Source of the DNA: Candidatus Dormiibacterota bacterium
GTDB taxonomy: Bacteria; Chloroflexota; Dormibacteria; Aeolococcales; Bog-877
Direction: 5' to 3'
Assembly: GCA_027339635.1 (NCBI GenBank)
Contig: DAHWNZ010000002.1
Location: forward strand, 24,874 to 88,873
Length of the DNA stretch: 64,000 nucleotides
Shown: positions 3,623 to 23,303 of the stretch, one piece after another
Numbering within the stretch: the first letter of the stretch is position 1
Layout of the letters: each line of letters opens with the position of its first letter
Position numbers and translations under genes: made by a program
Notes under the pieces: model-generated
Told to the model about the DNA's origin: nothing
The model's input: only the letters and a program-made list of their open reading frames with translations
Database searches by the model: none

Positions 3623-3942
3623 GGCCTCCATCGCTCCGGCGTGAAGGGGAAGGACGACGGCCTGGGGCACCTGGTACTCATACCCGCCGATTGTCGCCGA
3701 TCGGCGCTGGCTGGCGGCGGCGCAGTCAGCGGCCGATGTGTCCACGGCGGCGCCGTTGGAGCGGCCTGGATGCTCCCCATCTGAGCTCCAGGTTCCCTCC
3801 GGTTGGCTCGGCATGCGCAGGAGCGATGCGCCTGGAAGCGCCATCGGGCTCCGAGCTGGCGCTCGTTCCCGCAATCCCAGCGGCGCTGACTTCGGCTATA
3901 TTGAATTCCTTGCCAGTTCATCGCAGGCGCCCCTTCCGTCCG

Positions 3943-5160
3943 GTGGCGCCCACCTACAACGCTCCAGCCTCGGCTGAGCCAGCACCCGCGGCGCCGGCTC
4001 CTTCGCTGAGCTTCTCCGAGCTCGGGCTGTCTTCGGGGATGCTGGCCACCCTGGACGAGATTGGATACTCCGAGCCCACTCCGATTCAGGCTCTCACCTT
4101 GCCCGCGGCCCTCTCGGGCAGGGACGTGATCGGACAGGCTCAGACCGGTTCCGGGAAGACCGCCGCATTTGCGATACCGGTGCTGGAACGCTTGACGCCG
4201 GGGCGGACCGAGGTGCAGGCCCTGGTGATGTGCCCCACCCGCGAGCTGGCCGCCCAGGTGACGGCCGAATTCGAGCGCCTGGGCAGGGCCGCTCAGGTGG
4301 GCACCCTGGCCATAGTCGGCGGTGACCCCATCCACCGCCAGCTGACCGGCCTCAAGGAGCACCCAGCGGTGGTGGTGGGCACCCCGGGGCGCATCCTGGA
4401 TCACCTGCAGCGAAGGACGCTGTCGCTCAGGTCCATCCGCTTTGCGGTGCTGGATGAGGCGGACCGTATGCTGGACATGGGCTTCGCGCCGGATGTCGAG
4501 CGGATTCTGCAACAGACTCCCCGGGAACGGCAGACGCTGCTGTTCTCGGCCACGGTCCCGGGCTGGATCCATCGGCTGGTGGAGCGCCACATGCGCAACC
4601 CCGAGACCATCTCCGTCAGCGGCCAGGCGGAGCTGGTGAGCACGGTGAGCCAGTGGTGCATCGAGTGCTCCTGGGCCGACAAGGTGGAGGCGCTCTCCCT
4701 GCTTCTGGACAGCCCCAGGGTCACCTGCGGCCTCATCTTCACCGCCACCAAGCGCAATGCCGACATGCTGCACACAGTGCTGCTGGGGCGGGGCTACGAC
4801 GTCACGGTGCTGCATGGGGATCTCTCCCAGTCGGATCGGGACCGAGCCCTGAAGAGGTTCCGCGACTCCAAGGTTCGGTTCCTCATCGCCACCGACGTCG
4901 CCGCCCGTGGAATCGACATCGACGACATAAGCCACGTGATCAACTACGACGTCCCCGCCAGCCCTGAGGACTACATCCACAGGGTGGGCAGGACCGCCAG
5001 GGCGGGGCGGGACGGGGTGGCGCTCACGCTGATCACGCCCATCGAGATCCTCAAGATCCGGGACATCGAGAAGCACACCCACCGGCCCATCGAGCGGCAC
5101 ACGCTCGAGGACCTCCACCAGCTGGCCGGAACCCTCAACACCGTAACCAGCGTCGGCTGA
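3943..5160 (+). CDS. DEAD-box RNA helicase
   Basis: Q-motif PTPIQ, AQTGSGKT, PTRELA, TPGR, DEAD, SAT, ARGID, HRVGRTAR; start approximate. Confidence 0.96.
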   Translation: MAPTYNAPASAEPAPAAPAPSLSFSELGLSSGMLATLDEIGYSEPTPIQALTLPAALSGRDVIGQAQTGSGKTAAFAIPVLERLTPGRTEVQALVMCPTRELAAQVTAEFERLGRAAQVGTLAIVGGDPIHRQLTGLKEHPAVVVGTPGRILDHLQRRTLSLRSIRFAVLDEADRMLDMGFAPDVERILQQTPRERQTLLFSATVPGWIHRLVERHMRNPETISVSGQAELVSTVSQWCIECSWADKVEALSLLLDSPRVTCGLIFTATKRNADMLHTVLLGRGYDVTVLHGDLSQSDRDRALKRFRDSKVRFLIATDVAARGIDIDDISHVINYDVPASPEDYIHRVGRTARAGRDGVALTLITPIEILKIRDIEKHTHRPIERHTLEDLHQLAGTLNTVTSVG

Positions 5161-12537: not shown

Positions 12538-13452
12538 ATGTCCCACCCGGTCCTGGAGGCGAGGGATCTCCTGCGGCGCTTCTCGAACGGGAGGGGCGTG
12601 GGACCGCTCAACCTTCTTGTCAGCCAGGGTGAGGTGTTGGCCCTGGTCGGGCCCAACGGCTGCGGCAAGACGACCCTGCTGCGCTGCCTGGCAACCAGGA
12701 GCACCCCAGGCCAGGGTGAGGTGCTTTGGTTTGGTGACCGAGACCCCGCCCTTGCCCGCCCCCGCCTGGGGGTGGTGTTCGACGCGACCGCCCACGCGGA
12801 CGAGCTCAGCGCCAGAGAGAACCTGGCCTTCTTCGCCTCCGCGCGGGGCGCCCCGGTGGGACCTTCAACGCCCCTCCTATCTCAGGCTGAGTTGAGCGAC
12901 GTCGCCGATGAGCCCGTCGCGTCCTACTCCTACGGGATGCGACGGCGGCTGTTGCTGGCGGAGGCGCTGGCCGGCGACCCCGAGCTCCTCCTGCTCGACG
13001 AGCCAACGCTCGGCCTTGACGTGGCCGGCCAGCGGTGGCTGGCGGATGTCCTCCAGGAGCGGGCGGCGAGAGGAACGGCGGTGTGCATCTCCACCAACGA
13101 CACCGAATTCGTGGAGTCGGCGGCGACTCGGGTCTGTTTTCTGGTGGATGGACTGGCCGTCCATGACTCTCCCCTCGACGAACTGCTGGCCTCCCTCGGC
13201 GGCAGCAGAGAGATCCACCTCACATCCAGGAGCCAGCTGCCGGTGGAGAGGCTTCGCTGCGTGCCAGGGGTCGAGGGGGTCGCTCTCGTCGAAGGAGGGG
13301 CGATCGTCCTGGCCCACCAGCGAGAGGGGTTGCTGGCGGACCTGCTGGCGACCATGGGAGACCTCGACCGCACCCTGGTCGACCTCTCGGTGCGGGAGCC
13401 GGGGCTGGCCGACTGCTTCTTGCGGATCACGGGGCGGGCTCTCGGTGACTGA
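12538..13452 (+). CDS. ABC transporter ATP-binding protein
   Basis: GPNGCGKTT, YSYGMRRR, LLLDEPT. Confidence 0.92.
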   Translation: MSHPVLEARDLLRRFSNGRGVGPLNLLVSQGEVLALVGPNGCGKTTLLRCLATRSTPGQGEVLWFGDRDPALARPRLGVVFDATAHADELSARENLAFFASARGAPVGPSTPLLSQAELSDVADEPVASYSYGMRRRLLLAEALAGDPELLLLDEPTLGLDVAGQRWLADVLQERAARGTAVCISTNDTEFVESAATRVCFLVDGLAVHDSPLDELLASLGGSREIHLTSRSQLPVERLRCVPGVEGVALVEGGAIVLAHQREGLLADLLATMGDLDRTLVDLSVREPGLADCFLRITGRALGD

Positions 13453-14221
13453 GAACGCCCCCGCCATGGGCCTCAAGACCTCCGCACCTCCCAGGACTCC
13501 GGGGACGGGCCCCCGGTCACTGTGGCAGCTGGAGTTGCGGGCGACCCTGTCGCGCCGCCGGGCGCTGGCGATAAAGATGGGTTTTCCACTCTTGCTGGTG
13601 ATTCCCCTGGTCGCCACCGACGCCCCCCAGTTCTTCGCCGGGATGCTTCTCACCATCCTCATCGCCATGGTGGGCACGGTCGGGACGGGCGTCAGTGTCA
13701 CCCGCTCCCGGGGATCCGGGTGGCTCGACCGGCTGGCGGTCCTTCCCCTGCCGAGATGGCGGATATCGCTGGAGATCTTCTTCGCCGGGTGGCTGGTCGA
13801 CTGCGTCCAGGCCACCATCGTCTTTTTGGTGCTGGAACTGGCTCAGCGCCCCGACCCGTTCGCGATCCTGACCACCTGGCTGCTGGCGCTGGCGACCTTG
13901 GGGTTCTCGGGCGCCATCGGGCTCGCGGTCGCGACTCTGACCGACAACGCCGGGGAGGCGATGCTCTTTCTGGCGGTCATCCTGGCACCGATGCTCTTTC
14001 TATCGGGACTGTTCACCGGGGTCCCGGCCACGGGGATCCGCTACTGGGTCGCTCAGGTGTTGCCGTTCAGCTACCTGAGCGACGGGTTCCAGCTGTGTCT
14101 GCACGGAAACCCGCCCTATGGCAGCTCCATGAGCTTTCTCCTGGCCGCGATCGGCTTCGGAATCGTGGCCGTGGGGGCCAGCGCCGCTCTGGGCCGAGCG
14201 CTCCTGGCGCGAGGGGCGTGA
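13445..14221 (+). CDS. ABC-2 type permease
   Basis: About 6 TM, GWLDRLAVLP, FLSGLF...LPFSY; overlaps the ATPase stop. Confidence 0.85.
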   Translation: MTENAPAMGLKTSAPPRTPGTGPRSLWQLELRATLSRRRALAIKMGFPLLLVIPLVATDAPQFFAGMLLTILIAMVGTVGTGVSVTRSRGSGWLDRLAVLPLPRWRISLEIFFAGWLVDCVQATIVFLVLELAQRPDPFAILTTWLLALATLGFSGAIGLAVATLTDNAGEAMLFLAVILAPMLFLSGLFTGVPATGIRYWVAQVLPFSYLSDGFQLCLHGNPPYGSSMSFLLAAIGFGIVAVGASAALGRALLARGA

Positions 14222-14636
14222 GGAGAGCCGACCGCCGCGCCCAGCCCGCAGAAGCCACCGTCGACTGCCTCCTTACCGGGTCAGCGGCGCGGGACCGGGC
14301 CCGGCACGATGCGCCCGCTGCGCGGCCACCGCCAAGCCGACTGAGCTATTGCATCAGGCGGGCGATTACAGGGGAATCCGGACCCCGGCCCCCGGGCAAA
14401 CGCCCGCGTCGACAGCGGTGCAACAACTGCCACCTCACTGGGGCCAAGGGGTTGGACGCCCGAACCGGTGCTGACCGAGATTCCGCTTCGCCGGTCAAAG
14501 TGGATGGCTGGGCCCCGGGGCACCCGTAAGCTGCAACTGGCCAGCCGGCCAGGCACCGGTCGCAGACACAGAACCGAGAGCGAGGGCAACCCGGGGGAGT
14601 GCGAGGTCATCACCTCAGGCCACGCCGCACAGCCGG

Positions 14637-15482
14637 TCAGCCTGGCCTGTCGGCCGCCTTCCCCGTTGGGTAGCGTCGCTGCCGCCACAACCACAGCCCG
14701 CCCAAGAACATCAGCAAGCCGACGACGATGAGCAGTCGACTGAGAGCGATGGGCAGGTCGGCACCCGTGGATGGGGTCTGCGCCCCAAGAACTCCCTGGT
14801 GCTGTCCGGCGCCGGGATCCCCGCCAGGCTGTCCGGGGGCGGTGGTGCTTTGGCCGAGCACTCCGCCAGCCGGGGTTGATAGGTTCGTGAAGACCGGCTG
14901 CACGGTGACGCTGGCGCTGCCACCCTGGTATGGGTTGCCGGCGGCCAGCGGCATTAGCCACCTGACGGTGAAGGTTTCGGCCGCCACCCGCCCACCGCCG
15001 GCGGTTGTGACGGGAAGATTACCGGTGTCGCTCACGCAGTAGCTGGCGTTTGGGTACGCGGCCGGCTGGTCGAGCTCCGCGGAGGTGTAGCAGGCCACCG
15101 GGCCAACGAGGAAGAGCTGGCCTGTGCTGTCGTTGATGATCTGCACCTGCAAACCGGTCTGCGTACCGTCGAGCAGGGCTTCGGTCCCCAGGGCGGATCC
15201 TGGCTTCCCACCTGCGGACATGGACGCGCTCGACACTCGAAGCACAACCTTGACCGGATGGCCCACGTAGGGGTTGGCAAAGGTCTCCTGGCAGCTTCCG
15301 CTCGAGCCCGGCATCAGCGCGGCCGAGGTGCCGCAGACGCTGAGGGTGGTCGCGGCCGACACGGTGGTAGACGCGGCGAGACCAAGGGCCGTGCCCGTGC
15401 CACCGCTCAGCAGGCCCAGGCACACCAGGACCAGGGATGGCCGTGTCCGCTGGCGCAGCCAGTGCAGCGCTATCACCGCCAT
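14637..15482 (-). CDS. TasA/camelysin-like secreted subunit with C-terminal sortase-like sorting signal
   Basis: N-terminal hydrophobic leader; AAGNPYQGGSASVTV shared with 15778..16884; C-terminal GVLGAQTPSTG + hydrophobic helix + RQRR. Start uncertain. Confidence 0.7.
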   Translation of the reverse strand: MAVIALHWLRQRTRPSLVLVCLGLLSGGTGTALGLAASTTVSAATTLSVCGTSAALMPGSSGSCQETFANPYVGHPVKVVLRVSSASMSAGGKPGSALGTEALLDGTQTGLQVQIINDSTGQLFLVGPVACYTSAELDQPAAYPNASYCVSDTGNLPVTTAGGGRVAAETFTVRWLMPLAAGNPYQGGSASVTVQPVFTNLSTPAGGVLGQSTTAPGQPGGDPGAGQHQGVLGAQTPSTGADLPIALSRLLIVVGLLMFLGGLWLWRQRRYPTGKAADRPG

Positions 15483-15736
15483 CCCGCCATCCGGCCCGTC
15501 AGGGCAGGTCCGACCTGAGCCCGGGCCCGTGTGCCTGCAGCCCGCCTGCCCGAAGCGCTTGCCCGGGTCGTCGGCGTGGTGCCGTGGGGCGCCGGGTGGC
15601 ACTGCCAAGGCATCCCTGCCCAAGAGCTCGCGGAAGTCCCTCCTTGGGAGCCTGCGGCCCTTTTGGTGGACGCCCGTTGCGGATCGTTCAAAGCGTTCAA
15701 GTCTCCTTGTCGATCGATTGGAAAGGAATCCGGTTG

Positions 15737-15766
15737 GAGGAGCCGGCTCCTGAGAGCCGGCTCCTC
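15737..15766 (-). terminator. Perfect 13-bp stem-loop just downstream of the major TasA-like gene
   Basis: GAGGAGCCGGCTC-ctga-GAGCCGGCTCCTC; lacks a strong U-tract, so may be an mRNA stabiliser or partial terminator. Confidence 0.7.
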
Positions 15767-15777
15767 GCACACGGTCG

Positions 15778-16884
15778 TCAGCCGACCGTGATGTTCCAGA
15801 AGGTCTCGCCCTGCTGGGGGAAATCGTCGTTGCTGGTCAGGTCGCTCGGGTTGGCTCCCGCCTTGTACACGACGTAGGAGGCGTTGGCATAGACGTTGTA
15901 GGTGAAGTTCAGCACGTCACCTGCCTTGGGCATGGCGCCCGTGCATGAGGAGACGGTCAGGCCCAGGGTGCTTACCGCGGCCGAGGCCACGTTCGATCCA
16001 AAGGCAGGAAGCGGCGACGGTGTCGTGATGCTGTACTGGCAGACATCAGGCGTGGTCGCGGTGCTCTGGGTGACGTCCGTAGCCGAGAACTCTGAGGGAG
16101 CGGACGGCGTGTAGTTGTTGGTGTTGAAGACTTGGACGGGGACGTTGTAGCCGACGTTCAGGGTGGTCGCGCTGGGCGAGGTCACCGACTCGAAGATGGG
16201 CCCGGTCGGGTACTCGGGCGCGTGCCCGGAGTTGTTGGTGTCATTGACGGACTGCACCGCCCATGCGTCAACCGAGATGGAGGCCGACCCGCCCTGGTAA
16301 GGGTTGTTCTGAGCCGGTGTCCCGATGTTCATCGCCCCGCTGATGGTGAACGTGAAGGACCCGCCGCTGGTCGGGTTCCAGAGGTCCACCACCTGGTTGT
16401 CGTCACTGCTGCAGGCCTGCCAGCCGGCGGCTGTCTGAGCGGTGCTGCAGTTGGAAGCGCTGGGAGTTCCCCAACCGAAGAGCTGGGTTCCGATGCCGTA
16501 CTCCGAGGCGGCGGGAGTCGAGATGGTCGGCACCAGGCCGTATGCCCCACCGATCAGGGGCGAGCCGCCAGGGGTGCCGGCCTTGGACTCGGTGGAAACG
16601 TTGAGCAGCAGCCAAGCCGGGGCCGTGCCCGTGTAGTCGACCGTATAAGTGCAAGTGGATCCGAGGGACTGGCCGGGGACTATATCCGAGAAGTTGCAAG
16701 AGCTCGCGTTTGCCGAACCGGTGTTGGTCAGCGTGACGGTGGCCGCGCTGATGGTCGAGGTTTGGGGCGTGGCCGCGCTGCTGAACAGCGCGTAGCTGGC
16801 CCCGATCGCCAGGGCTGCCGCCGCGCCCACCACGCCGATGGCGCTGAGGACGAGCGTCAGCCGTCGGTTTCTACCGATGGACAT
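15778..16884 (-). CDS. TasA/camelysin-like SipW-dependent secreted protein (putative major fibre subunit)
   Basis: Basic N-terminus + hydrophobic helix + GASYALFSS...STISAA SipW-type leader; N.YQG motif; S/T/N/G-rich with Cys pairs; AGGAG RBS. Confidence 0.78.
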   Translation of the reverse strand: MSIGRNRRLTLVLSAIGVVGAAAALAIGASYALFSSAATPQTSTISAATVTLTNTGSANASSCNFSDIVPGQSLGSTCTYTVDYTGTAPAWLLLNVSTESKAGTPGGSPLIGGAYGLVPTISTPAASEYGIGTQLFGWGTPSASNCSTAQTAAGWQACSSDDNQVVDLWNPTSGGSFTFTISGAMNIGTPAQNNPYQGGSASISVDAWAVQSVNDTNNSGHAPEYPTGPIFESVTSPSATTLNVGYNVPVQVFNTNNYTPSAPSEFSATDVTQSTATTPDVCQYSITTPSPLPAFGSNVASAAVSTLGLTVSSCTGAMPKAGDVLNFTYNVYANASYVVYKAGANPSDLTSNDDFPQQGETFWNITVG

Positions 16885-17065
16885 CCTGAGTTACTCCTAA
16901 AAATTTCTGCTTGGAGATGCGCTGTGGCACATCCCGGTTCACCTTCTCCGCTCCTCTTTCCGTGCTCCTATCTCCTTCCTCCCATGTGCTCTGCACCTGC
17001 CGTCTCGTTGCCAAACTGGGTCAGCCGACGTCCCCACCCCTGGTCGGACCCCGGGGCGCACCCGC

Positions 17066-17740
17066 CTACCACGGGCGACCCATTGAATCGGCCTCCTTCT
17101 CTCGGGCCGCCCGCTCCTCGGCGTCAATCGCGCGCCAGCGCCGACGCGTCTCCCCGGTCACGAAATAGAGGACGGGGATCATGATCAGGATCACGAATGT
17201 CACGGGCTGATGGACCGCCGTCAGCACGTACCCCCCCAAGGGGATGCTGCCCTGATAGACGCCCAGCACATCCGCCGCCGCGACCGGCAGGGCGTCGGGC
17301 ACGTTGTTGGCGTCACCCTTGGTGCGGTATTCGACCTGGGTCAGGCCGCCCGGGCCTGGCCCGGTGCCAACCGAGTAGATGCGGTGGGTGATCACCAACG
17401 GGGCCTGCCCCGCGGTCCGCGCAGGGTCTACGAAGGTTATGATCTGCCCCTTGCGCAGATGGCTCGCCTGCGCCAGAGTGACGGTTCGGTCGTAGATCAA
17501 ATCTCCCGGCACGAAGGTGGGGGCCATGGAGCCGCTGGCCACGCTGAAGGCGGGATGGCCGAACACGACTCGTTCTCCGTAGGGGCCGTTCTTCACGGTC
17601 ACGGCGAGGAATATCGCCACCGCCAGGAGGAGCACCACCAGCACCGTCAGGAGGGTGGCCAGAGCGTTGAAAAACCGACCTGCTACGCCATGGCTCTGCC
17701 GCTTCGTCGGCCCGACGTTGACCGAGACCCGATCGGTCAT
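17066..17740 (-). CDS. sipW: SipW/Sec11-type signal peptidase I (copy 2)
   Basis: SGSMAP...GDLI, ITHRI, TKGDANN.PD (Ser/His type); N- and C-terminal TMs. Confidence 0.93.
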   Translation of the reverse strand: MTDRVSVNVGPTKRQSHGVAGRFFNALATLLTVLVVLLLAVAIFLAVTVKNGPYGERVVFGHPAFSVASGSMAPTFVPGDLIYDRTVTLAQASHLRKGQIITFVDPARTAGQAPLVITHRIYSVGTGPGPGGLTQVEYRTKGDANNVPDALPVAAADVLGVYQGSIPLGGYVLTAVHQPVTFVILIMIPVLYFVTGETRRRWRAIDAEERAAREKEADSMGRPW

Positions 17741-18411
17741 GGCCGCCTCCCGCTGGCGCGGGCGGGGGACTCGGTCTCCGGCCCCAGCAGGCGCCAGCGA
17801 CGTCTGAACTCTCCCGCTCCCAGGAACACGACCAACAGAACCGCCAAGATCACAAAGGTGGTCGGCTGGTGGAGTGCGCTCAGGACGTAGGCTCCGTCCG
17901 GTACCCGGACCCCCTGGTAGATGCCGACGATCGCGGCGGGCGCCACCAGCCCAGCATCGACCACGTTGTTGGCATCGCCCTTCGTTTGGTACCTCACCCC
18001 ACCCGGCGCGGGACTCGGAATCACCTTGTGAATGCGATGGGTGATGAGGATCGGCGCTCCCGCCTGAGTGAACTCGCTTGATCGAAACGTGATCACCTGA
18101 CCCCGGTGCAGATGCTCAGCGGCCGAAAGAGAGATTGGGTTGTCCAGGATCAGGTCTCCAGCGTCAAAGGTGGGGGTCATCGAACCGCTGGCGACCTCCA
18201 GAAGCGGGTGCCCCAAAACCGACGTCTCCCCATCCGGCCCCTGACGGACAAGCGCGACCAAGAGGATGGAGCCGAGCAGCGCCACGACTGCCAGAAGGGT
18301 CAGGAGGTTGACGACCAAGCGCGCCGTATGGGCCGCCAAGGAGCGCGTCGCGGCGGTCCGAGCAGGAGAGCCGGCAGCTCCGCCATCAGCAGTCCAGAGC
18401 ATCTGGTTCAT
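17737..18411 (-). CDS. sipW: SipW/Sec11-type signal peptidase I (copy 1)
   Basis: SGSMTP...GDLI, ITHRI, TKGDANN..D; ATGA overlaps at both ends. Confidence 0.93.
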   Translation of the reverse strand: MNQMLWTADGGAAGSPARTAATRSLAAHTARLVVNLLTLLAVVALLGSILLVALVRQGPDGETSVLGHPLLEVASGSMTPTFDAGDLILDNPISLSAAEHLHRGQVITFRSSEFTQAGAPILITHRIHKVIPSPAPGGVRYQTKGDANNVVDAGLVAPAAIVGIYQGVRVPDGAYVLSALHQPTTFVILAVLLVVFLGAGEFRRRWRLLGPETESPARASGRRP

Positions 18412-19463
18412 GGCTGGAAGTACCACAGGTGGTCCGCCAGAGGGCCCGACTGGTCGGTGTCCTGGAGCAACAGGTAAGCGACGTAGGTGGTGTCAGGTGA
18501 TAGCAGCCCCGTGGGATTGCTCCCGGAGGCCACGTCCGAGGCCACGCTGAAGGTGATCACCACGCGCTTGCTCTTGGGGCCGTTGGGCGTCGGCTGGGTG
18601 GTCCCAAAGGCGGCGGGGGAGACCTGGTAGTTGGAGTAGACGACGCTGACAGCAACCGGGGCGATCACCGGTTGCCCGGTGAAGCTCAGATGGCCGTCGG
18701 CTCCGGCGCTCACCTGGGAGGCCTGATAGATGGCGACGTACGGGATTCCAGTCCCTGAAGCCGCGTACCCGGCTGCCGAGGGCTCGCTCATGACCCCGGC
18801 CGGGACCGCGACCGTCAGTGCCTTGTCCAGGATGCAGATGTCGTACTGCTCAGCGGACGTCGATGCCCCTGGCGCCAGGCTAGTGGAGGGACAGGTGGGG
18901 GTCGTCGACGGGACGTACTGCGACAGTTCGCTCTCGTCACAGTAGCCTGCCGCGAAGCTGTCGCCGTGGGCGGGAGTGGAGGCGCTGCCGGTCACCCCGT
19001 CGCTTGCATCCCCAACTCCGATCGTCCCCGCTGGGAGCCCCATCGACGCGGGAAGAAGGGACCTTGCCGAGGTGATCAAGGACTCGAAAGGCGGCGGCAT
19101 GGCCCCAATCTGAGAGCCCGGAGCCGGAGGCGTGGTGCTAACTCCGAGGTAGGGGTCGTAGCTCAGGTTGGCAACCTGCTGGCAGGCGGCCGCTGCCGGC
19201 TGCGGAGTGGCCACAGGGGACGGGCTGGGCCCCGGTTTGAACTGGTTGCCGGCGGTGAAGCTGCTACTGCCCGGGGCCGCCTGGGAGGTGAAGAGGGCCC
19301 CAGTCGTGCCGAGCCCCAGCACGGAGCCCGCCAGCAGCACCAGCACCGCGATCGCCGGGATCCTGCTGACAACACCAGCCTTGCCGGGCGGGTCGTAGGG
19401 CAGGGGACGCCACTCATGGTTTTCTAGAGATCCCGATCGCCGCCACGGGAGGTGCTCAGCCAT
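18408..19463 (-). CDS. SipW-dependent secreted protein (TapA-like position)
   Basis: Hydrophobic helix then GTTGALFTSQAAPGSSSFTAG, matching the SipW-cognate GTxAxF...FxAG pattern; GGAGG before ATG 19463. Confidence 0.75.
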   Translation of the reverse strand: MAEHLPWRRSGSLENHEWRPLPYDPPGKAGVVSRIPAIAVLVLLAGSVLGLGTTGALFTSQAAPGSSSFTAGNQFKPGPSPSPVATPQPAAAACQQVANLSYDPYLGVSTTPPAPGSQIGAMPPPFESLITSARSLLPASMGLPAGTIGVGDASDGVTGSASTPAHGDSFAAGYCDESELSQYVPSTTPTCPSTSLAPGASTSAEQYDICILDKALTVAVPAGVMSEPSAAGYAASGTGIPYVAIYQASQVSAGADGHLSFTGQPVIAPVAVSVVYSNYQVSPAAFGTTQPTPNGPKSKRVVITFSVASDVASGSNPTGLLSPDTTYVAYLLLQDTDQSGPLADHLWYFQP

Positions 19464-19669
19464 GAAGCCTCCGAGCGCCCTCAACAGTCGTGCCGGATCC
19501 CACGCGCGCAAACCAGACTCCCTGGGTGTTCGGGCGCGGCCCCCCAGCCTGGCACGGGCCTTCTATAGCACCGACTGATACCAGGTCCACGTCCTCCCAA
19601 CTCCCGCCACGACTGTGCCGCTAAGTGTAACGGGGTGTCAATGGGTTTGAACGCCTTGTTACAGAAGGG

Positions 19670-20401
19670 TCAGTGGCAGTTCGCGGCCGTTGAGGTCAGA
19701 AAGATCAGGATGACGGCGATCAGGTTGAACGACGCGTGAAGAGCCATCCCTGGGTACAGGGATTTGGTCCTCTGGTAGACCAGGGCCAGGGCCACACCGG
19801 CTATGAAGAGCGACGGCCCGAGGAGCAGGATCGACCCCCCGACCGAAAGGGTGTGGGCCAAGGCGAATACGGCGGAACTGGCCACGACAGCCCAGGTCGT
19901 GCCCAGGCGGCCCTGGAGCCCTCCGAAGATGAAGCCCCGGAACGTGATCTCCTCCACGATGGGGGCGATCACCACGATCGCGATGATCCCCAGGTAGGCG
20001 TCCTGGCCGAAGCCCTGGGAGATGTCGCATCCCTGCGGGTTGGTCATGCCCCCCAGCAGGGGCGACAGGGCGACCGAGATGAAGCTGGTTAGGAACTGCA
20101 ACGCCAGGGCCACTACCGGCATCAGGGGCAGGACCCAGAAGGGTGGGCGCCGCAGCCCCAGTTCGGACCAGATGCGCCCTTTGTGGCGGCTGGCGAAGAA
20201 CACCACCACCGCCAGCAGTGCCCCGTAGAAGGCAACGGTGGTGGCCATGTTGTAGTAGGGCAGAATTGCCTGCCCGGAGTGCCCTGTCAGGCTCCCGATC
20301 ACCCTGGCCTGGCTGAGACCGTCCACCACCGCCGCCACCAGATAGACCGCCACCAGCACCGCGGGGATCGCGACCACAATCCCGAACACCACCTCGCGCA
20401 C
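19670..20401 (-). CDS. CPBP/CAAX (Abi) intramembrane glutamic endopeptidase
   Basis: APIVEEITFRG, FALAH, HASFN; true start probably further upstream (see findings). Confidence 0.92.
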   Translation of the reverse strand: MREVVFGIVVAIPAVLVAVYLVAAVVDGLSQARVIGSLTGHSGQAILPYYNMATTVAFYGALLAVVVFFASRHKGRIWSELGLRRPPFWVLPLMPVVALALQFLTSFISVALSPLLGGMTNPQGCDISQGFGQDAYLGIIAIVVIAPIVEEITFRGFIFGGLQGRLGTTWAVVASSAVFALAHTLSVGGSILLLGPSLFIAGVALALVYQRTKSLYPGMALHASFNLIAVILIFLTSTAANCH

Positions 20402-20457
20402 GCCCCAGGAGGTGTGACTGGGTGGGCTCTCAGGCTCGGGGTCGACCAGCTCGACGC

Positions 20458-21150
20458 TCAGGGGCGAGTCCAGGCACTGCCGGTCGGACGCTCTCTCTCG
20501 GTGCTCTCAGACGAAGCCGGCACCGCGGGTGCCGAGGGGGGCAACGGGACGGTTCCCGACCATGGCATCGACCGCGGCGCTCCCTGCACCGTCCAGCGCC
20601 CGGTCGGGGTGATGTTGGTGCGGCGCCGCTGGGTCAATTCTTCGGCAGGGTGCTGGGCCAGAGGTCGCTCCCCCGGGACCGGGCTGAGGCGCACCCAGAG
20701 AACGCCCAGGGTCACGAAGAACACGAGGTAGACGGCCGTGATAATCGAGGACGCCTCCAGCGTCCCGACCGCCACCGCCGCCACCAGCTCGAGGACCAAC
20801 CCGACCACCACCGAGCTGCGGCCGGAGGTCATCCTGGCACCGGGACGGAGCACGCCCGCCGCGCCGCTCAACATCAAAAGATCGCCCAGCAGGCCCACGA
20901 TGGCCCCTGCCAGCACGGGCAGGTAGGAGGCGGGCCCCTGGGGCGGCCCAGCCTGACTCATGGCCGACATGACGGCAACGAGGGAGGCCGCGTTGGCGAC
21001 CGCGGAGATCAAGGCTATGGCCAGAATGGCCCACCCAAGTCGCAGACCCCACTCACCCGCGCGGGCAGCGACCGTGCCGGCACCGGAATCCGTCCGCGGC
21101 CTGTCGCCGGAGCGCCTGGCCCTGGTCGGGCGCTGCTGGATCATCCCCAT
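20458..21150 (-). CDS. Hypothetical membrane protein (about 4 TM, Pro-rich tail)
   Basis: Four hydrophobic stretches; co-directional with the CPBP gene. Confidence 0.6.
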   Translation of the reverse strand: MGMIQQRPTRARRSGDRPRTDSGAGTVAARAGEWGLRLGWAILAIALISAVANAASLVAVMSAMSQAGPPQGPASYLPVLAGAIVGLLGDLLMLSGAAGVLRPGARMTSGRSSVVVGLVLELVAAVAVGTLEASSIITAVYLVFFVTLGVLWVRLSPVPGERPLAQHPAEELTQRRRTNITPTGRWTVQGAPRSMPWSGTVPLPPSAPAVPASSESTERERPTGSAWTRP

Positions 21151-21371: not shown

Positions 21372-23303
21372 ATGCCAGCACCTCGCAAGACCCCTGGCGC
21401 TGCGCCGCCCTCGGTGCTGGATCGGGTGAACTCCCCCGCCGATTGTCGTCGACTCGACCTCGGGGAGTGCCGGCGCCTCTCTCAGGAGATTCGGGAGTTC
21501 CTGGTGGAGAAGGTCTCCAGGACCGGCGGGCACCTGGGGCCGAACCTGGGGGTGGTGGAGATCACCCTGGCCATCCATCGGGTGTTCGACAGCCCCCGCG
21601 ACCGGATCGTCTTTGACACGGGCCATCAGGCCTACGTGCACAAGATCCTGACCGGGCGGAAGGACCAGTTCAACAACCTGCGTCAGGCGGGCGGGATGTC
21701 GGGGTACCCCAACCGTGAGGAGTCTCCCCACGACGTGGTGGAGAACAGCCACGCCTCGACCGGACTCAGCTACGCGTTGGGCCTGGCCCAGGCGAGGCGT
21801 CGCCGCGGGGATCCTGGCAAGGTGGTGGTGGTCGTGGGCGACGGATCGCTCACGGGCGGCATGGCCTATGAGGCGCTCAACAACATAGGTTCCCTGCGTC
21901 CCGATCTGGTGATCATCCTCAACGACAACGGGCGTTCGTACGCCCCCACCGTGGGCGGGCTGGCGAACCATCTGGCCCGGCTCCGCCTCAACCCGCGGTA
22001 CGAGGCGGCCAAGACCGGGATCGGTGACTTCCTGAGTTCTCTGCCGGCGGTCGGCGAGCCGGCCCACGAGATGGCGCGTCGCTTCAAAACCGGCGTGAAG
22101 CAGCTGGTGTCCCCCAACGTCTTCTTTGAGGACCTGGGCATCAAGTACTCGGGCCCGATCGACGGGCATGATCTCGAGGCGGTGGAGGGGGCGCTCAAGC
22201 TGGCGCGCAACCTGAGAGGGCCGGTCGTGGTCCACGTCGTCACCGACAAGGGACACGGGTTCAGCCCTGCCGAAGACGATGAGATCGACAAGTTCCACGG
22301 TGTGGGGGCCTTCGACGTCTCGACAGGGAAGATCCACCCGGCCGGCGTCAGCTACACGGACGTCTTCGAGGAGGTGCTACTGACCCTCGCCGAGGAGGAT
22401 CCGAGCCTGGTGGCGATAACGGCCGCGATGGCCTCCTCGACGGGTTTGCTGAAGTTCTCCACCCGCTTTCCCGATCGCTTCTATGACGTCGGCATCGCGG
22501 AGCAGCACGCGGTCACCTTCGCGGCCGGCCTGGCCATGGGGGGGCTGCACCCGGTCGTGTGCATCTATTCCACCTTCCTGCAGAGGGCCTTTGACCAGGT
22601 CATGTGCGATGTCGCTCTGCACAACCTGCCGGTGACTTTCGTGCTGGATCGCGCCGGCGTCACCGGACCCGACGGCAGCTCCCATCACGGGATGTTCGAT
22701 CTCAGCTACCTGCGCATGGTGCCCAATCTCGTGGTGTCCACTCCGCGAGACGCGGCCGAACTCGGCCGCCTCACGGCCACCGCCGTCCGGCATCCAGGCC
22801 CCTTTGCGATCCGATACCCGCGAGGTGCCGCCGGCGAGCTGGTGGTTGACATCCGGCCACTTCCGAGCCTGTCGTGGGAGGTCGCGAAGGAGGGGGGAAA
22901 GGACGTCCTGATCTGCGCGGCGGGCAAGATGGTGGGGATCGGCCTGAACGCCTGCAGCCTGCTCGAAGCGGCCGGGATCACCGCCACAGTCGTCAATGCA
23001 CGCTTCCTCAAGCCGGTTGACCGCAGGCTCCCGGACTGGGCCCGCGCCCATAGGGCAGTCGTCACCCTGGAGGACAACACGGTGCGCGGTGGGCTCGGGG
23101 CGGCGGTGATGGAGAGCCTCATGGCCGCCGGCGTGGTGTGTCCGGTCCGCCAGGTTGCCCTGCCCGACAGGTTCCTGCCCCACGGATCCCAGGCGGAGCT
23201 GTTGTCGGAGTTCGGGCTCACCCCAGAGGGGGTGGCGGAGGCGGCGATCGCCGCGCTGGAAACCAGTGAAGGAGGGACGGCCGCGGCCCAGGCCGCCGGC
23301 TGA
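21372..23303 (+). CDS. dxs: 1-deoxy-D-xylulose-5-phosphate synthase
   Basis: GGHLGPNLGVVE, DTGHQAYVHKILTGR, GDGSLTGGMAYEALNN, DVGIAEQHAV, IYSTFLQR; TATAAT at 21358-21363. Confidence 0.97.
   Translation: MPAPRKTPGAAPPSVLDRVNSPADCRRLDLGECRRLSQEIREFLVEKVSRTGGHLGPNLGVVEITLAIHRVFDSPRDRIVFDTGHQAYVHKILTGRKDQFNNLRQAGGMSGYPNREESPHDVVENSHASTGLSYALGLAQARRRRGDPGKVVVVVGDGSLTGGMAYEALNNIGSLRPDLVIILNDNGRSYAPTVGGLANHLARLRLNPRYEAAKTGIGDFLSSLPAVGEPAHEMARRFKTGVKQLVSPNVFFEDLGIKYSGPIDGHDLEAVEGALKLARNLRGPVVVHVVTDKGHGFSPAEDDEIDKFHGVGAFDVSTGKIHPAGVSYTDVFEEVLLTLAEEDPSLVAITAAMASSTGLLKFSTRFPDRFYDVGIAEQHAVTFAAGLAMGGLHPVVCIYSTFLQRAFDQVMCDVALHNLPVTFVLDRAGVTGPDGSSHHGMFDLSYLRMVPNLVVSTPRDAAELGRLTATAVRHPGPFAIRYPRGAAGELVVDIRPLPSLSWEVAKEGGKDVLICAAGKMVGIGLNACSLLEAAGITATVVNARFLKPVDRRLPDWARAHRAVVTLEDNTVRGGLGAAVMESLMAAGVVCPVRQVALPDRFLPHGSQAELLSEFGLTPEGVAEAAIAALETSEGGTAAAQAAG

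What the first reader, a model, noticed from the sequence alone, without database searches (positions are those of the whole stretch)
14637..19463. Candidate cell-wall-anchored TasA-type fibre system with twin SipW peptidases
Seen: five co-directional genes. These are a SipW-leader protein (GTTGALFTS...FTAG), two ATGA-coupled SipW/Sec11 peptidases, a TasA/camelysin-like protein (GASYALFSS leader, N.YQG motif), and a paralog sharing NPYQGGSAS that ends in TPSTG + TM + RQRR. Known: Bacillus tapA-sipW-tasA has one SipW, and TasA polymerises by donor-strand exchange without a sortase tag. Inference: a three-component fibre (tip or nucleator, shaft, sortase-attached base) combining SipW-triggered polymerisation with covalent wall anchoring, in a lineage unlike Bacillus.
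Basis: partly seen in the sequence, partly recalled or inferred. Interest (0 to 1): 0.85.

Follow-up and report, generated by a model that had tools for sequence, protein, structure and literature searches.

The report
SipW–TasA-like fibre operon with wall anchor
An uncultured soil and mine-water bacterium carries a five-gene cassette that most likely builds a TasA-type surface fibre with a starter or tip protein, a shaft protein and a base protein that carries a cell-wall anchoring tail; this extends a design so far discussed mainly for Bacillus and Clostridium relatives.

Summary
Five co-directional minus-strand genes lie at 14637-19463. They encode a leader-bearing protein (g1), two ATGA-coupled archaeal/SipW-type signal peptidases, a TasA/camelysin-like protein (g4), and a paralog (g5) ending in TPSTG + hydrophobic segment + RQRR.

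The genome is a Dormibacteria-type MAG. The order SipW -> TasA-like -> anchored paralog recurs in 9 of 10 related loci. All 11 g5-like ORFs examined keep a [TA]PxTG sorting tail. The genome has one sortase and about six other proteins with the same tail.

g1 resembles TapA in three ways: it lies upstream of SipW, its stop overlaps the SipW start, and its post-leader N-terminus mimics that of g4. g4 has a very conserved N-terminal extension. g5 appears to lack that extension.

This fits a polar model: g1 strand -> g4 polymer -> g5 terminator anchored by sortase. Polymerisation and anchoring are inferred, not shown. The Pfam TasA model does not hit the window proteins, and fold matches to TasA are middling.

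The combination is not unprecedented. LPXTG-bearing TasA paralogs and sortase-anchored donor-strand pili are already discussed in print.

Verdict: real, coherent, and a new variant of a known kind.

The parts
18408..19463 (-). g1: TapA-like initiator/tip candidate (351 aa). It has a short cytoplasmic N-terminus, a SipW-type leader (..LGTTGA|LFTS..), a post-leader stretch resembling the N-terminus of g4, a Pro-rich linker, and a conserved C-terminal domain of about 215 aa with unknown fold.
   Evidence: ORF and translation. No Pfam or NCBIfam family. Family of 21 representative clusters in 1.84 billion proteins. The C-domain recurs in 400-1040 aa proteins, three of which carry DUF11. Family alignment A3. 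Its stop overlaps the SipW1 start (ATGA).
17737..18411 (-). SipW1: archaeal/Sec11-type signal peptidase I (224 aa), translationally coupled to g1 and to SipW2.
   Evidence: TIGR02228 78.2 bits (cut-off 51.85) and NF046067 SipW 85 bits (below its equivalog cut-off of 190). GSM / THR / KGDAN motifs kept. Pairs with the first SipW of L002 in the tree (95/96).
17066..17740 (-). SipW2: second archaeal/Sec11-type signal peptidase I (224 aa).
   Evidence: TIGR02228 86.5 bits. Catalytic motifs kept. Pairs with the second SipW of L002 (98/98).
15778..16884 (-). g4: candidate major (shaft) subunit (368 aa). It has a SipW-type leader (IGASYA|LFSS), a highly conserved N-terminal extension (residues 33-49), a TasA/camelysin-like beta-sandwich (about 50-215, ending in NNPYQGGSA) and an extra Ig-like C-terminal domain (226-368).
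   Evidence: Homologs. Alignment A1. 32% identity over 224 alignment columns to PF12389-bearing P0019. ESM Atlas: 25 of 30 neighbours in clusters where 42-46% of members carry PF12389. Model pLDDT 64.9. VIA: TasA fibre 8aur_A Z 6.3, rmsd 4.2, 151 aligned; C-domain against SbsC 2ra1_A Z 9.7, rmsd 2.4, 95 aligned. The N-extension is the most conserved segment.
15737..15766 (-). GC-rich 13-bp hairpin just after the g4 stop. Candidate attenuator, terminator or mRNA stabiliser that could set the shaft-to-anchor ratio.
   Evidence: Fold -37.2 kcal/mol, z -4.41, 0 of 200 shuffles as stable. GC hairpins stand at the same place in L002 and L012, seen by eye. It is not called by the T-run terminator scan.
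14637..15482 (-). g5: candidate terminal anchor subunit (281 aa). It has a signal peptide with a conserved AXA-type site (..VSA|A..), a TasA-like domain paralogous to g4 but without the N-terminal extension, a Gly/Pro-rich linker with GVLG repeats, and a C-terminal sorting signal.
   Evidence: 57 homologs. Alignment A2 uses 37 of them. hhalign to A1: 99.1%. Model pLDDT 76.9. VIA best matches: CfaE/CfaB pilins Z 7.0, rmsd 2.8, 119 aligned; TasA 5of1_B Z 5.1, rmsd 3.3, 120 aligned, 18% identity.
14673..14777 (-). C-terminal sorting signal of g5: TPSTG, a hydrophobic helix and RQRR.
   Evidence: T and G of the motif are invariant, and T-P are at least 90% conserved, in 37 of 37 aligned homologs. 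The same tail is present in 11 of 11 g5-like ORFs of L002-L012. It is the most conserved stretch of the family (0.82 against 0.57 for the core). The Pfam Gram_pos_anchor model gives only 10.1 bits.

Best explanation
The cassette most likely encodes a SipW-dependent, TasA-superfamily surface fibre with built-in polarity.

Shown:
- There are two active-looking SipW/Sec11-type signal peptidases.
- g1 and g4 carry SipW-type leaders.
- g4 and g5 share a TasA/camelysin-like beta-sandwich domain.
- g5 ends in a conserved [TA]PxTG + hydrophobic + basic tail.
- The genome has one sortase, and other proteins carry the same tail.
- The gene order is conserved across related genomes.

Inferred:
1. After SipW cleavage, g4 exposes a conserved N-terminal strand of about 15 residues. 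This strand inserts into the sandwich of the next g4 (donor-strand exchange, as in TasA) and builds the shaft.
2. g1 behaves like TapA. It offers a look-alike N-terminal strand to the first g4, which starts the fibre. g1 stays at the distal end and displays its own C-terminal domain.
3. g5 has the acceptor domain but no donor extension. It takes the last free g4 strand and ends growth.
4. The housekeeping sortase cuts the TPSTG signal of g5 and links it to peptidoglycan. Failing that, the tail holds g5 in the membrane.
5. The hairpin after g4 lowers read-through into g5, so shaft subunits outnumber anchors.
6. The second SipW travels with g1 and may be specialised for the g1-type cleavage site. 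That site has a small residue at -2, where g4-type leaders have an aromatic or large one.
For: Peptidases. Both pass TIGR02228. All 16 SipW sequences compared keep the GSM, THR and KGDAN motifs.

TasA link.
- g4 aligns end to end with P0019: 32% identity over 224 alignment columns (g4 residues 6-215), pairwise E 4e-12. P0019 passes PF12389 at 35.3 bits against a cut-off of 22.5.
- Two members of the g4 family score 22.0 and 21.3 bits.
- 25 of 30 ESM Atlas neighbours are PF12389-bearing clusters, score 0.96.
- VIA aligns 151 residues of the g4 N-domain to the TasA fibre subunit 8aur_A (Z 6.3, rmsd 4.2).
- VIA aligns 120 residues of g5 to TasA 5of1_B (Z 5.1, rmsd 3.3, 18% identity, the highest identity in that list).
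- g4 and g5 are paralogs: hhalign 99.1%, E 4e-19.

Donor strand.
- Residues 33-49 of g4 are disordered in the monomer model (pLDDT below 50 up to residue 47). Yet they are the most conserved segment (0.86 against 0.70 for the core).
- They occupy the position of the TasA donor strand, residues 28-38 (PMC9674648, passages).
- hhalign places g5's ..TVSAATTL on g4's ..ISAATVTL. The conserved AXA site of g5 therefore leaves its mature form without the 12-15-residue extension.

g1 as a TapA analogue.
- It lies upstream of SipW and its stop overlaps the SipW start. The introduction shown with the outline of PMC10151520 mentions the same overlap for tapA-sipW, although the passage is cut off there.
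- Its post-leader LFTS.A.P..S..TAG resembles the N-termini of g4-type proteins. TapA resembles the TasA donor strand in the same way.

Anchor.
- The tail is conserved in 37 of 37 aligned homologs and in 11 of 11 locus ORFs.
- There is one sortase in the genome: PF04203 69.8 bits, TIGR01076 39.9 against 39.35, with a LITC motif.
- Six further ORFs carry xPxTG + TM + basic tails. Three of them, plus g5 itself, have the same GVLGA.. prefix before the xPxTG motif (picked by eye from the regex output).
- Sortase occurs in 195 of 201 genomes of the class, including all 18 that have a g5 match.
- No Omp85/BamA was found in the genome (87.7% complete).

Synteny.
- SipW -> g4-like -> g5-like in 9 of 10 loci; the tenth is cut at the contig end.
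- SipW lies within 5 kb upstream of g5 at 11 of 17 places in genomes of the class.
- The twin SipW duplication predates the split of the window and L002 lineages (95/96 and 98/98).
Against: - No curated model places the window's own g4 or g5 in the TasA family. PF12389 gives no hit at E up to 1 by hmmscan or E up to 10 on the genome. TIGR04088 gives no hit at E up to 1.
- The PF12389 matches of relatives cover only profile positions 3-78 of 196, that is the leader plus the first strands.
- Profiles of both families find nothing in PDB sequences at E up to 10.
- Foldseek gives only non-specific beta-sandwich hits.
- The VIA scores for TasA (6.3 and 5.1) are tied with many unrelated sandwiches. 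For g5 the best matches are chaperone-usher pilins, not TasA.
- The sorting motif has T or A where the canonical signal has L. Pfam Gram_pos_anchor scores 10.1 bits against a cut-off of 20.
- The sortase fits no curated class: the best is class E at 58 bits against a cut-off of 160. It is not near any of the loci.
- Which peptidase cuts g5, and where, cannot be told from sequence.
- At 4 of 17 g5 places no SipW was found with this query, and 2 more lie at contig edges.
- There is no expression or protein evidence.
Confidence: 0.6

Rival explanations
1. The genes encode SipW-processed, non-polymerising surface or secreted proteins (camelysin-like monomers). g5 is an independent wall- or membrane-anchored surface protein, and g1 an unrelated secreted protein that merely shares the peptidase. 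The operon groups substrates with their peptidases and builds no fibre.
For: Nothing here shows polymerisation. Fold matches are generic beta-sandwiches. Curated TasA models miss the window proteins. The genome also has SipW + TasA-like pairs without an anchor, for example on C33.
Against: The disordered N-terminal extension of g4 is its most conserved part. That is hard to explain for a monomer. The post-leader segment of g1 mimics it. g5 lacks exactly this segment. The fixed order SipW -> shaft-like -> anchored paralog and the hairpin after g4 fit a stoichiometric assembly.
Confidence: 0.2
2. A fibre is made, but g5 is only a membrane anchor. Its C-terminal helix and basic tail hold it in the cytoplasmic membrane, as proposed for the membrane anchor TafF of archaeal Tafi, and sortase does not cleave it. 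The conserved TPxTG would then serve another purpose, such as a hinge, a glycosylation site, or recognition by another protease.
For: The motif is non-canonical, and Pfam Gram_pos_anchor is below its cut-off. The sortase is unclassified and unlinked to the loci. BsaA oligomers of C. perfringens strain 13 were reported as membrane-anchored, not wall-anchored (PMC11580942, passages). A CPBP-family intramembrane protease flanks the cassette.
Against: The tripartite tail is the most conserved part of the family. It is shared by unrelated large surface ORFs of the same genome, as expected for a general sorting signal. Sortase is near-universal in the class (195 of 201 genomes). The CPBP gene stays in place where the cassette is missing, in G297 and G251, so it is a flank and not a dedicated partner.
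Confidence: 0.15
3. The ORFs are chance open frames of a high-GC genome, or the arrangement is a mis-assembly of a metagenome bin.
For: The genome is a 206-contig MAG with 67% GC. Long spurious ORFs are common in this window.
Against: Each gene has homologs with conserved domain structure. The same order occurs in other organisms. Independent runs carry contigs that bridge the junctions.
Confidence: 0.01

Closest known systems
Bacillus subtilis tapA-sipW-tasA (TasA fibre, TapA initiator, SipW peptidase)
   Same: The gene order is accessory protein, then SipW, then the TasA-like major subunit. The accessory gene's stop overlaps the SipW start. The leaders are SipW-type. The accessory protein's N-terminus resembles that of the major subunit. 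There is an N.YQG-type motif near the end of the core; that TasA itself carries it is recalled, not tested here. Donor-strand exchange and TapA strand complementation are taken from PMC9674648 (passages) and PMC10151520 (abstract).
   Different: There are two SipW genes. g1 shares no detectable similarity with TapA beyond its architecture (no NCBIfam or Pfam hit). g4 carries an extra Ig-like C-terminal domain, best matched by the S-layer protein SbsC (Z 9.7). A third component, g5, carries a sortase-type tail. The lineage is Dormibacteria. The window proteins do not reach the PF12389 cut-off.
Clostridium perfringens sipW-bsaA-bsaB(-bsaC) with adjacent srtB
   Same: SipW plus a TasA-like polymer subunit plus a TasA-like paralog. 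In most strains that paralog carries an LPXTG motif. The authors suggest sortase attachment and heteropolymers formed by donor-strand exchange (PMC11580942, passages).
   Different: There the sortase gene is adjacent and the motif is canonical LPXTG. BsaA is locked by isopeptide bonds, and its secretion is helped by type IV pilus proteins. There is no TapA-like gene and only one SipW. Anchoring by the LPXTG paralog is a suggestion there too, not a result.
Enterococcus faecalis Elr (WxL) pilus
   Same: A Gram-positive fibre polymerised by donor-strand exchange. It has a predicted tip adhesin, an LPxTG protein that ends assembly, and sortase-dependent retention on the wall (abstract). The logic is the same as the model proposed here.
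   Different: The protein families are unrelated (WxL pilins and a DUF916/DUF3324 membrane chaperone). There is no SipW. The authors report the system as confined to Bacillota.
Archaeal strand-donation fibres of the TasA superfamily (ABP, AbpX, Tafi) and bacterial abpX loci
   Same: Jelly-roll subunits joined by strand donation. Tip and membrane-anchor proteins are proposed for Tafi (PMC12337348, passages). Bacterial abpX loci are often linked to SLH or LPXTG anchor proteins and sortases (bioRxiv 10.64898/2026.01.04.697558, passages).
   Different: The subfamilies and the secretion routes or peptidases differ: Tat in haloarchaea, and a 10-TM peptidase for AbpX. Here the anchor is itself a paralog of the shaft subunit. 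The only hint of a link to TafA is an NCBIfam E-value of 0.031 for g5.
Sortase-polymerised SpaA-type pili
   Same: A wall-anchored Gram-positive fibre whose base subunit is attached by a housekeeping sortase.
   Different: No pilus-specific (class C) sortase was found in or near the loci, and no curated pilin family was hit. Subunit joining would be non-covalent strand insertion, not sortase transpeptidation.

Membership tests
TasA/camelysin family (Pfam PF12389 Peptidase_M73) | Match to the family HMM above the gathering score (22.5 bits) | tested here: not met
   There is no PF12389 hit for g4 or g5 at E up to 1, and none in the whole genome at E up to 10. Relatives of g4 score 22.0 and 21.3 bits. 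The linking proteins P0018-P0020 score 28.1-36.2 bits, but only over profile positions 3-63 of 196.
TasA/camelysin family (Pfam PF12389 Peptidase_M73) | Sequence homology to accepted members over the whole domain | tested here: met
   g4 residues 6-215 align with P0019 residues 2-201 at 32% identity, pairwise E 4e-12. The database E-values of the three PF12389-bearing hits are 2.4e-6 to 4e-4. 25 of 30 ESM Atlas neighbours are clusters in which 42-46% of members carry PF12389 (a lead, not a test).
TasA/camelysin family (Pfam PF12389 Peptidase_M73) | Jelly-roll / beta-sandwich fold like TasA (5OF1, 8AUR) | tested here: inconclusive
   g4 N-domain against 8aur_A: Z 6.3, rmsd 4.2, 151 aligned, rank 14 and tied with other sandwiches. 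g5 against 5of1_B: Z 5.1, rmsd 3.3, 120 aligned, 18% identity. Foldseek did not list TasA.
TasA/camelysin family (Pfam PF12389 Peptidase_M73) | Polymerisation by N-terminal donor-strand exchange | not testable with these tools
   Only indirect evidence is available: a conserved, disordered N-terminal extension.
SipW-dependent-type signal peptide (TIGR04088) | Match to the leader model (cut-off 19 bits) | tested here: not met
   There is no hit for g1 or g4 at E up to 1. Relatives P0019 and P0016 score 18.4 and 17.3 bits. The ..G[AT][ST].A|LF[ST]S pattern is visible and conserved.
Archaeal/Sec11/SipW-type signal peptidase I (TIGR02228) | HMM above the cut-off (51.85 bits), and the Ser/His/Asp catalytic motifs | tested here: met
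   The scores are 78.2 and 86.5 bits. The GSM, THR and KGDAN motifs are present in both, and in all 16 SipWs compared. That these motifs hold the catalytic residues is recalled from the SipW literature.
Bacillus SipW equivalog (NF046067) | Equivalog cut-off of 190 bits | tested here: not met
   The scores are 85 and 88 bits. The two proteins are of the same type but are not orthologs by NCBI's criterion.
Sortase substrate (LPXTG-type cell-wall sorting signal, PF00746) | Tripartite C-terminus: pentapeptide ending in TG, hydrophobic segment, basic tail | tested here: met
   The tail is TPSTG + helix 245-270 + RQRR. It is conserved in 37 of 37 aligned homologs and 11 of 11 locus ORFs.
Sortase substrate (LPXTG-type cell-wall sorting signal, PF00746) | Match to PF00746 above 20 bits, with the canonical Leu at position 1 | tested here: not met
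   The score is 10.1 bits, E 0.82. Position 1 is T or A throughout the family.
Sortase substrate (LPXTG-type cell-wall sorting signal, PF00746) | A sortase encoded in the same genome | tested here: met
   There is one PF04203 match at 69.8 bits on contig C99. It fits no curated class.
Sortase substrate (LPXTG-type cell-wall sorting signal, PF00746) | Cleavage and linkage to peptidoglycan | not testable with these tools
   This needs protein chemistry.
TapA (B. subtilis TasA anchoring/assembly protein) | Sequence or model similarity to TapA/YqxM | tested here: not met
   There is no NCBIfam or Pfam hit for g1 and no usable ESM Atlas neighbour.
TapA (B. subtilis TasA anchoring/assembly protein) | Functional hallmarks: upstream of and overlapping sipW; SipW leader; N-terminus like that of the major subunit | tested here: met
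   The ATGA overlap is in the sequence. The leader and the post-leader similarity were judged by eye.
Sortase-polymerised (SpaA-type) pilus | Pilus-specific class C sortase and pilin genes in the locus | tested here: not met
   The genome has a single sortase, elsewhere in the genome. No sortase was found in any of the loci with the window genome's sortase as query.

The most novel reading that the evidence does not exclude
Dormibacteria build a third kind of monoderm pilus. It is a chaperone-free, SipW-gated donor-strand-exchange fibre of the TasA superfamily. Its growth is started by a TapA-like tip protein and ended by a donor-strand-less TasA paralog. A single housekeeping sortase then links that paralog covalently to the wall through an unusual (GVLGA.T)PxTG signal. 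The two SipW paralogs have split specificities, one for the tip protein and one for the shaft protein. The whole cassette behaves as a replaceable, fast-evolving surface-structure island at a fixed chromosomal site.
Probability: 0.35. Interest if true: 0.7.

Novelty: new variant of a known kind. Interest (0 to 1): 0.5.

Why it matters
TasA-type fibres are the best-studied protein scaffold of Gram-positive biofilms, but how they are fixed to the cell remains unclear. TapA is only 'thought to be involved in anchoring' (PMC9674648).

A family in which the anchor is itself a paralog of the shaft subunit, lacks the donor strand and carries a sortase signal gives a clear and testable answer for one branch of the superfamily. 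It also fixes the polarity of the fibre: tip first, base last.

The finding shows that the design 'strand-exchange shaft plus sortase-anchored terminator', just described for an unrelated enterococcal pilus, also exists in an uncultured lineage of acid mine and soil habitats outside Bacillota.

The non-canonical but strictly conserved TPxTG signal and the unclassified single sortase define a sorting system that could be tested in vitro.

The cassette is present or absent at a fixed site and is replaced by divergent versions. This suggests it is a variable surface structure under diversifying pressure.

Tried and rejected
- Complex prediction. Complex prediction on g4 residues 33-222 plus g5 residues 35-215 gave 'no answer': score 0.01 against a mark of 0.32, and the controls were not run. 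It counts neither for nor against binding.
- Foldseek against the PDB. Both models gave only scattered beta-sandwich hits with low TM-scores, and TasA was not listed.
- PDB by sequence. Profiles A1 and A2 gave 0 matches at E up to 10. P0019 gave only two chance-level hits.
- VIA wide for g5. TasA was not among the 50 rows shown. It appeared only in the second look at Foldseek's top 1000.
- PF12389 on the whole genome gave no match at E up to 10.
- Rfam on 14300-20600 at E up to 1 gave 0 matches, so no known riboswitch or leader was found.
- The promoter and terminator consensus scan found 0 promoters and one terminator-like site on the wrong strand inside g4. This was no more than in the shuffles.
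- I asked whether the 295-bp g4-g5 spacer is a remnant of the small extra TasA-like gene seen in L012. tblastn found no match in the spacer.
- The CPBP protease upstream was considered as a dedicated tail-processing enzyme. I rejected it as a system part because it stays next to the ABC transporter where the cassette is missing.
- RNA evidence: no RNA holder is listed among the sequencing runs. The runs laid are contigs only, so nothing can be said on expression.
- The ESM Atlas gave no usable neighbour for g1.
- Supplementary files of papers were not opened. The supplements of PMC11580942 (gene-neighbourhood data for its Fig. 9) and of the AbpX and Elr preprints may already list loci of this kind, and I could not check.
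- Searches for prior mention: searches found the papers cited. 'Dormibacterota' plus 'sortase' found 0 papers.
- Twenty of the 57 g5 homologs were left out of alignment A2: P0038, 40, 42, 45, 47, 48, 50, 52, 54, 55, 57-59, 61-63, 67, 69, 71 and 72. Most are from short contigs or are near-duplicates. Their tails were not inspected.
- The fragment P0014 and the three PF12389 proteins were left out of A1.
- The seven credible sorting tails were picked by eye from about 75 regex hits.
- X16 and X17 give identical figures and are probably one data set filed twice.
- The tallies include genomes flagged as unpublished. G171 is in all three, G287 is, and eleven more are. Two of the 11 SipW-adjacent g5 places are in G171; without it the count is 9 of 15.

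Full report
WHAT IS THERE

The window is high-GC (about 0.65-0.69 throughout). It belongs to a 2.82-Mb, 206-contig metagenome-assembled genome, 87.7% complete.

Five genes lie head to tail on the minus strand between 14637 and 19463.
- g1, 18408-19463, 351 aa.
- SipW1, 17737-18411, 224 aa.
- SipW2, 17066-17740, 224 aa.
- g4, 15778-16884, 368 aa.
- g5, 14637-15482, 281 aa.

The g1 stop overlaps the SipW1 start, and the SipW1 stop overlaps the SipW2 start, each as ATGA. About 180 bp separate SipW2 from g4, and 295 bp separate g4 from g5.

The ATG at 15482 is the likely start of g5, because homologs begin there. The conserved MAEH.PW.RS start of the g1 family supports the ATG at 19463.

Contigs from other public runs bridge the SipW1/SipW2 junction and the g4-g5 spacer at 99% identity or more. 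The layout is therefore not an assembly accident.

WHAT THE PARTS ARE

The peptidases. Both pass the curated archaeal-type signal peptidase I model TIGR02228 (78.2 and 86.5 bits against a cut-off of 51.85). Their best named match is Bacillus SipW, though far below its equivalog cut-off. Both keep the GSM, THR and KGDAN motifs, as do all 16 SipW sequences I compared.

g4. It has only 12 close relatives among the 5.8 billion clusters searched, one of them a fragment; one is labelled Candidatus Dormibacteria. There are also three weak hits to proteins that carry Pfam PF12389 (Peptidase_M73, the TasA/camelysin family).
- The pairwise alignment with one of these, P0019, runs over g4 residues 6-215 at 32% identity. 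It includes the N.YQGGSA motif near the end of the domain.
- P0018-P0020 pass PF12389, and two members of the g4 family score just under the cut-off. These matches cover only the leader and the first strands.
- The window's own proteins get no PF12389 or TIGR04088 hit.
- The ESM Atlas puts g4 residues 1-222 next to PF12389-bearing clusters in 25 of 30 hits.

g5. Its family is larger: 57 hits. The profiles of the two families align with 99.1% probability over 141 columns. g5 is therefore a paralog of the g4 N-terminal domain.

STRUCTURES

The g4 model is of middling confidence (pLDDT 64.9). The g5 model is better (76.9; core mostly above 85).

Foldseek gave nothing specific for either model. 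The exhaustive VIA search gave the following.
- It aligned 151 residues of the g4 N-domain to the TasA fibre subunit 8aur_A (Z 6.3, rmsd 4.2). This is tied with many other sandwiches.
- It matched the g4 C-domain (226-368) to a domain of the S-layer protein SbsC (Z 9.7, rmsd 2.4, 95 aligned).
- For g5 the best matches are the donor-strand pilins CfaE/CfaB (Z 7.0, rmsd 2.8, 119 aligned).
- TasA monomers 5of1/5of2 score Z 5.1/5.0 with 120/124 residues aligned and 18% identity, the highest identity in that list.

I read this as a pilin-like or jelly-roll sandwich that is compatible with TasA but does not prove it. The family assignment rests mainly on sequence and context.

THE TAIL AND THE SORTASE

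In the alignment of 37 of the 57 g5 homologs, the T and G of TPxTG are invariant and T-P are at least 90% conserved. A hydrophobic segment and basic residues follow. This stretch is the most conserved part of the family (0.82 against 0.57 for the core). All 11 g5-like ORFs in the fetched loci end in the same way.

The genome has one sortase, on another contig. It passes PF04203 at 69.8 bits and just passes TIGR01076. It has a LITC motif but fits no curated class.

A scan of all six frames of the genome found six further ORFs with xPxTG + TM + basic tails. Three of them, plus g5 itself, have the same GVLGA.. prefix before the xPxTG motif (triaged by eye). One of these tails also matches the g5 profile. 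The tail therefore looks like this lineage's general sorting signal.

Sortase occurs in 195 of 201 genomes sampled from the class, including all 18 with a g5 match. No Omp85/BamA was found in the genome. This fits a single-membrane envelope.

CONTEXT AND DISTRIBUTION

Ten related loci from species-representative genomes were fetched. Their labels are Candidatus Dormibacteria or Dormiibacterota, two unnamed 'bacterium' MAGs, one Chloroflexia MAG and one Actinomycetes MAG.

Nine show SipW -> g4-like -> g5-like in that order. The tenth is cut at the contig end. Most have one SipW and no g1. L006 has two SipW + TasA-like modules before the anchor.

The full five-gene form with g1 and twin SipW occurs in the window, in L002 and on contig C194 of the same bin. 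In the SipW tree, the window's first and second peptidases pair with the first and second of L002 (95/96 and 98/98). The duplication is therefore old and has been kept.

In 201 genomes of the class, g5 matches occur in 18. All are in one order (families f1, 7 of 22, and f2, 10 of 51). None occurs in the other three families, and none in the two genomes of the same genus. SipW lies within 5 kb upstream at 11 of 17 g5 places. Two places are at contig edges, and four have no SipW with this query.

The cassette sits between a CPBP-family protease gene and an ABC-2 transporter. The same flanks occur in six other loci.
- In same-genus G297 the two flanks are about 108 bp apart. In the closed genome G251 they are 825 bp apart. 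These are empty sites.
- C194 carries a cassette only 32-54% identical in protein sequence between flanks that are 83-85% identical.

The cassette thus behaves as a replaceable island. C194 is either a co-binned relative or a second copy; I cannot tell which.

HOW IT MOST LIKELY WORKS

The published TasA mechanism is as follows. SipW removes the leader. Residues 28-38 of one subunit then complete the sandwich of the next. TapA, whose N-terminus resembles that strand, provides the first strand (PMC9674648, passages; PMC10151520, abstract).

Three observations here fit the same logic and give it polarity.
1. By analogy, g4 is cut after A32. Residues 33-49 are disordered in the monomer model, yet they are the most conserved segment of the family.
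2. g1 is placed and translationally coupled like tapA. After its leader it carries a look-alike stretch (LFTS.A.P..S..TAG), followed by a Pro-rich linker and an unrelated conserved domain. That domain recurs in larger surface proteins, some with DUF11 repeats.
3. g5 has the acceptor domain. Its conserved AXA site aligns inside the mature part of g4, so mature g5 lacks the extension.

The resulting model is: g1 strand -> g4 -> g4 ... -> g5. g1 sits at the distal end and g5 at the base. g5 is then fixed by sortase, or at least by its membrane helix.

A 13-bp GC hairpin directly after g4 (-37.2 kcal/mol, z -4.4) would favour an excess of shaft over anchor. Hairpins stand at the same place in L002 and L012.

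The extra SipW travels with g1. g1-type leaders have a small residue at -2, where g4-type leaders have Y, F or M. This suggests split specificities, but it is speculation.

All the steps after 'the genes encode these domains' are inferred.

COMPARISON AND NOVELTY

The closest system is tapA-sipW-tasA. The differences are the second peptidase, the extra C-domain on the shaft, the anchored paralog, and the lineage.

The anchor idea is already in print in related forms.
- Most C. perfringens strains have an LPXTG-bearing BsaB homolog beside sipW-bsaA and srtB. TasA-family genes are said to sit often with LPxTG and sortase genes (PMC11580942, passages).
- Bacterial abpX loci have LPXTG or SLH anchors.
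- Tip and membrane-anchor proteins are proposed for archaeal Tafi.
- The enterococcal Elr pilus combines donor-strand exchange with sortase anchoring, in an unrelated family reported as confined to Bacillota (abstract).

I found no paper that links Dormibacterota with sortase. The other searches found none that describes a donor-strand-less anchored TasA paralog. I could not see the supplements of these papers.

I therefore rate this a new variant of a known kind, of moderate interest.

LIMITS

- There is no expression, protein or structural experiment.
- The single complex prediction gave no answer.
- The genomes are MAGs.
- Some tallies include genomes flagged as unpublished: G171, G287 and others.

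Noticed in passing
L012 (= G000 contig C194, 1-7514): A second complete cassette sits between the same flanking genes as in the window. It holds a g1-like gene, two SipW genes, a g4-like gene, a small extra TasA-like gene and a g5-like gene with an APTTG tail. The flanks are CPBP protease (83% aa identity) and ABC-2 permease (85% aa identity); the flanking DNA is 78-79% identical. The cassette proteins are only 32-54% identical to the window's. This is either a co-binned related population or a segmental duplication, and it looks like allelic replacement of a surface-structure island.
   Followed up: partly
window 19670-20401 and 13466-14221; G297 contig C111 18592-20168; G251 C1 373448-375711: Empty sites. 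In a same-genus genome the CPBP gene and the ABC-2 permease gene are about 108 bp apart. In a closed same-family genome they are 825 bp apart. The 4.9-kb cassette is therefore a presence/absence polymorphism at a fixed chromosomal site.
   Followed up: yes
L013 (= G000 contig C33, about 3238-4970): A third, simpler locus in the same genome holds a SipW (217 aa) plus a TasA-like protein (333 aa, leader ..ASFALFYD). It lies directly after a 1017-aa regulator-like ORF that, by eye, looks like a large ATPase with helical repeats. There is no anchored paralog.
   Followed up: partly
G000 contigs C130, C142, C151 (ORF ends listed): Several large ORFs (330-730 aa) end in xPxTG + TM + Arg-rich tails. 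Two of them (one on C130, one on C151) carry the same GVLGA.. prefix before xPxTG that g5 and the C194 paralog have. This looks like a lineage-specific, non-canonical sorting signal served by a single unclassified sortase.
   Followed up: partly
window 15778-16200 (g4 residues 226-368): The shaft candidate carries an extra C-terminal beta-sandwich domain. Its best structural match is a domain of the Geobacillus S-layer protein SbsC (Z 9.7, rmsd 2.4, 95 aligned). Bacillus anthracis S-layer domains match at Z of about 6. It may mediate lateral packing or adhesion.
   Followed up: no
L006 7047-12859; L003 9189-9692; L007 3005-3715; L011 5475-7082: The cassette varies between genomes. L006 has two SipW + TasA-like modules before one anchor. 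L003, L007 and L012 have an additional short TasA-like gene between shaft and anchor. L011 (an Actinomycetes MAG) has a short leader-bearing ORF upstream of its single SipW, which may be a mini TapA-like gene.
   Followed up: no
window 14600-19520: Near-identical DNA of the cassette occurs in contigs of mine-drainage, mine-tailings, sediment and soil metagenomes from 7 studies. Eight rows are not flagged as a possible source and hold 0.78-0.92 of the sampled words. Runs X16 and X17 give identical figures and are probably one data set filed twice.
   Followed up: partly
window 21372-23303 and 12538-14221: The neighbours look ordinary, judged by eye from the translations and not scanned against families. 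They are a 643-aa ORF that looks like 1-deoxy-D-xylulose-5-phosphate synthase, on the plus strand, and an ABC transporter ATPase plus ABC-2 permease pair.
   Followed up: no
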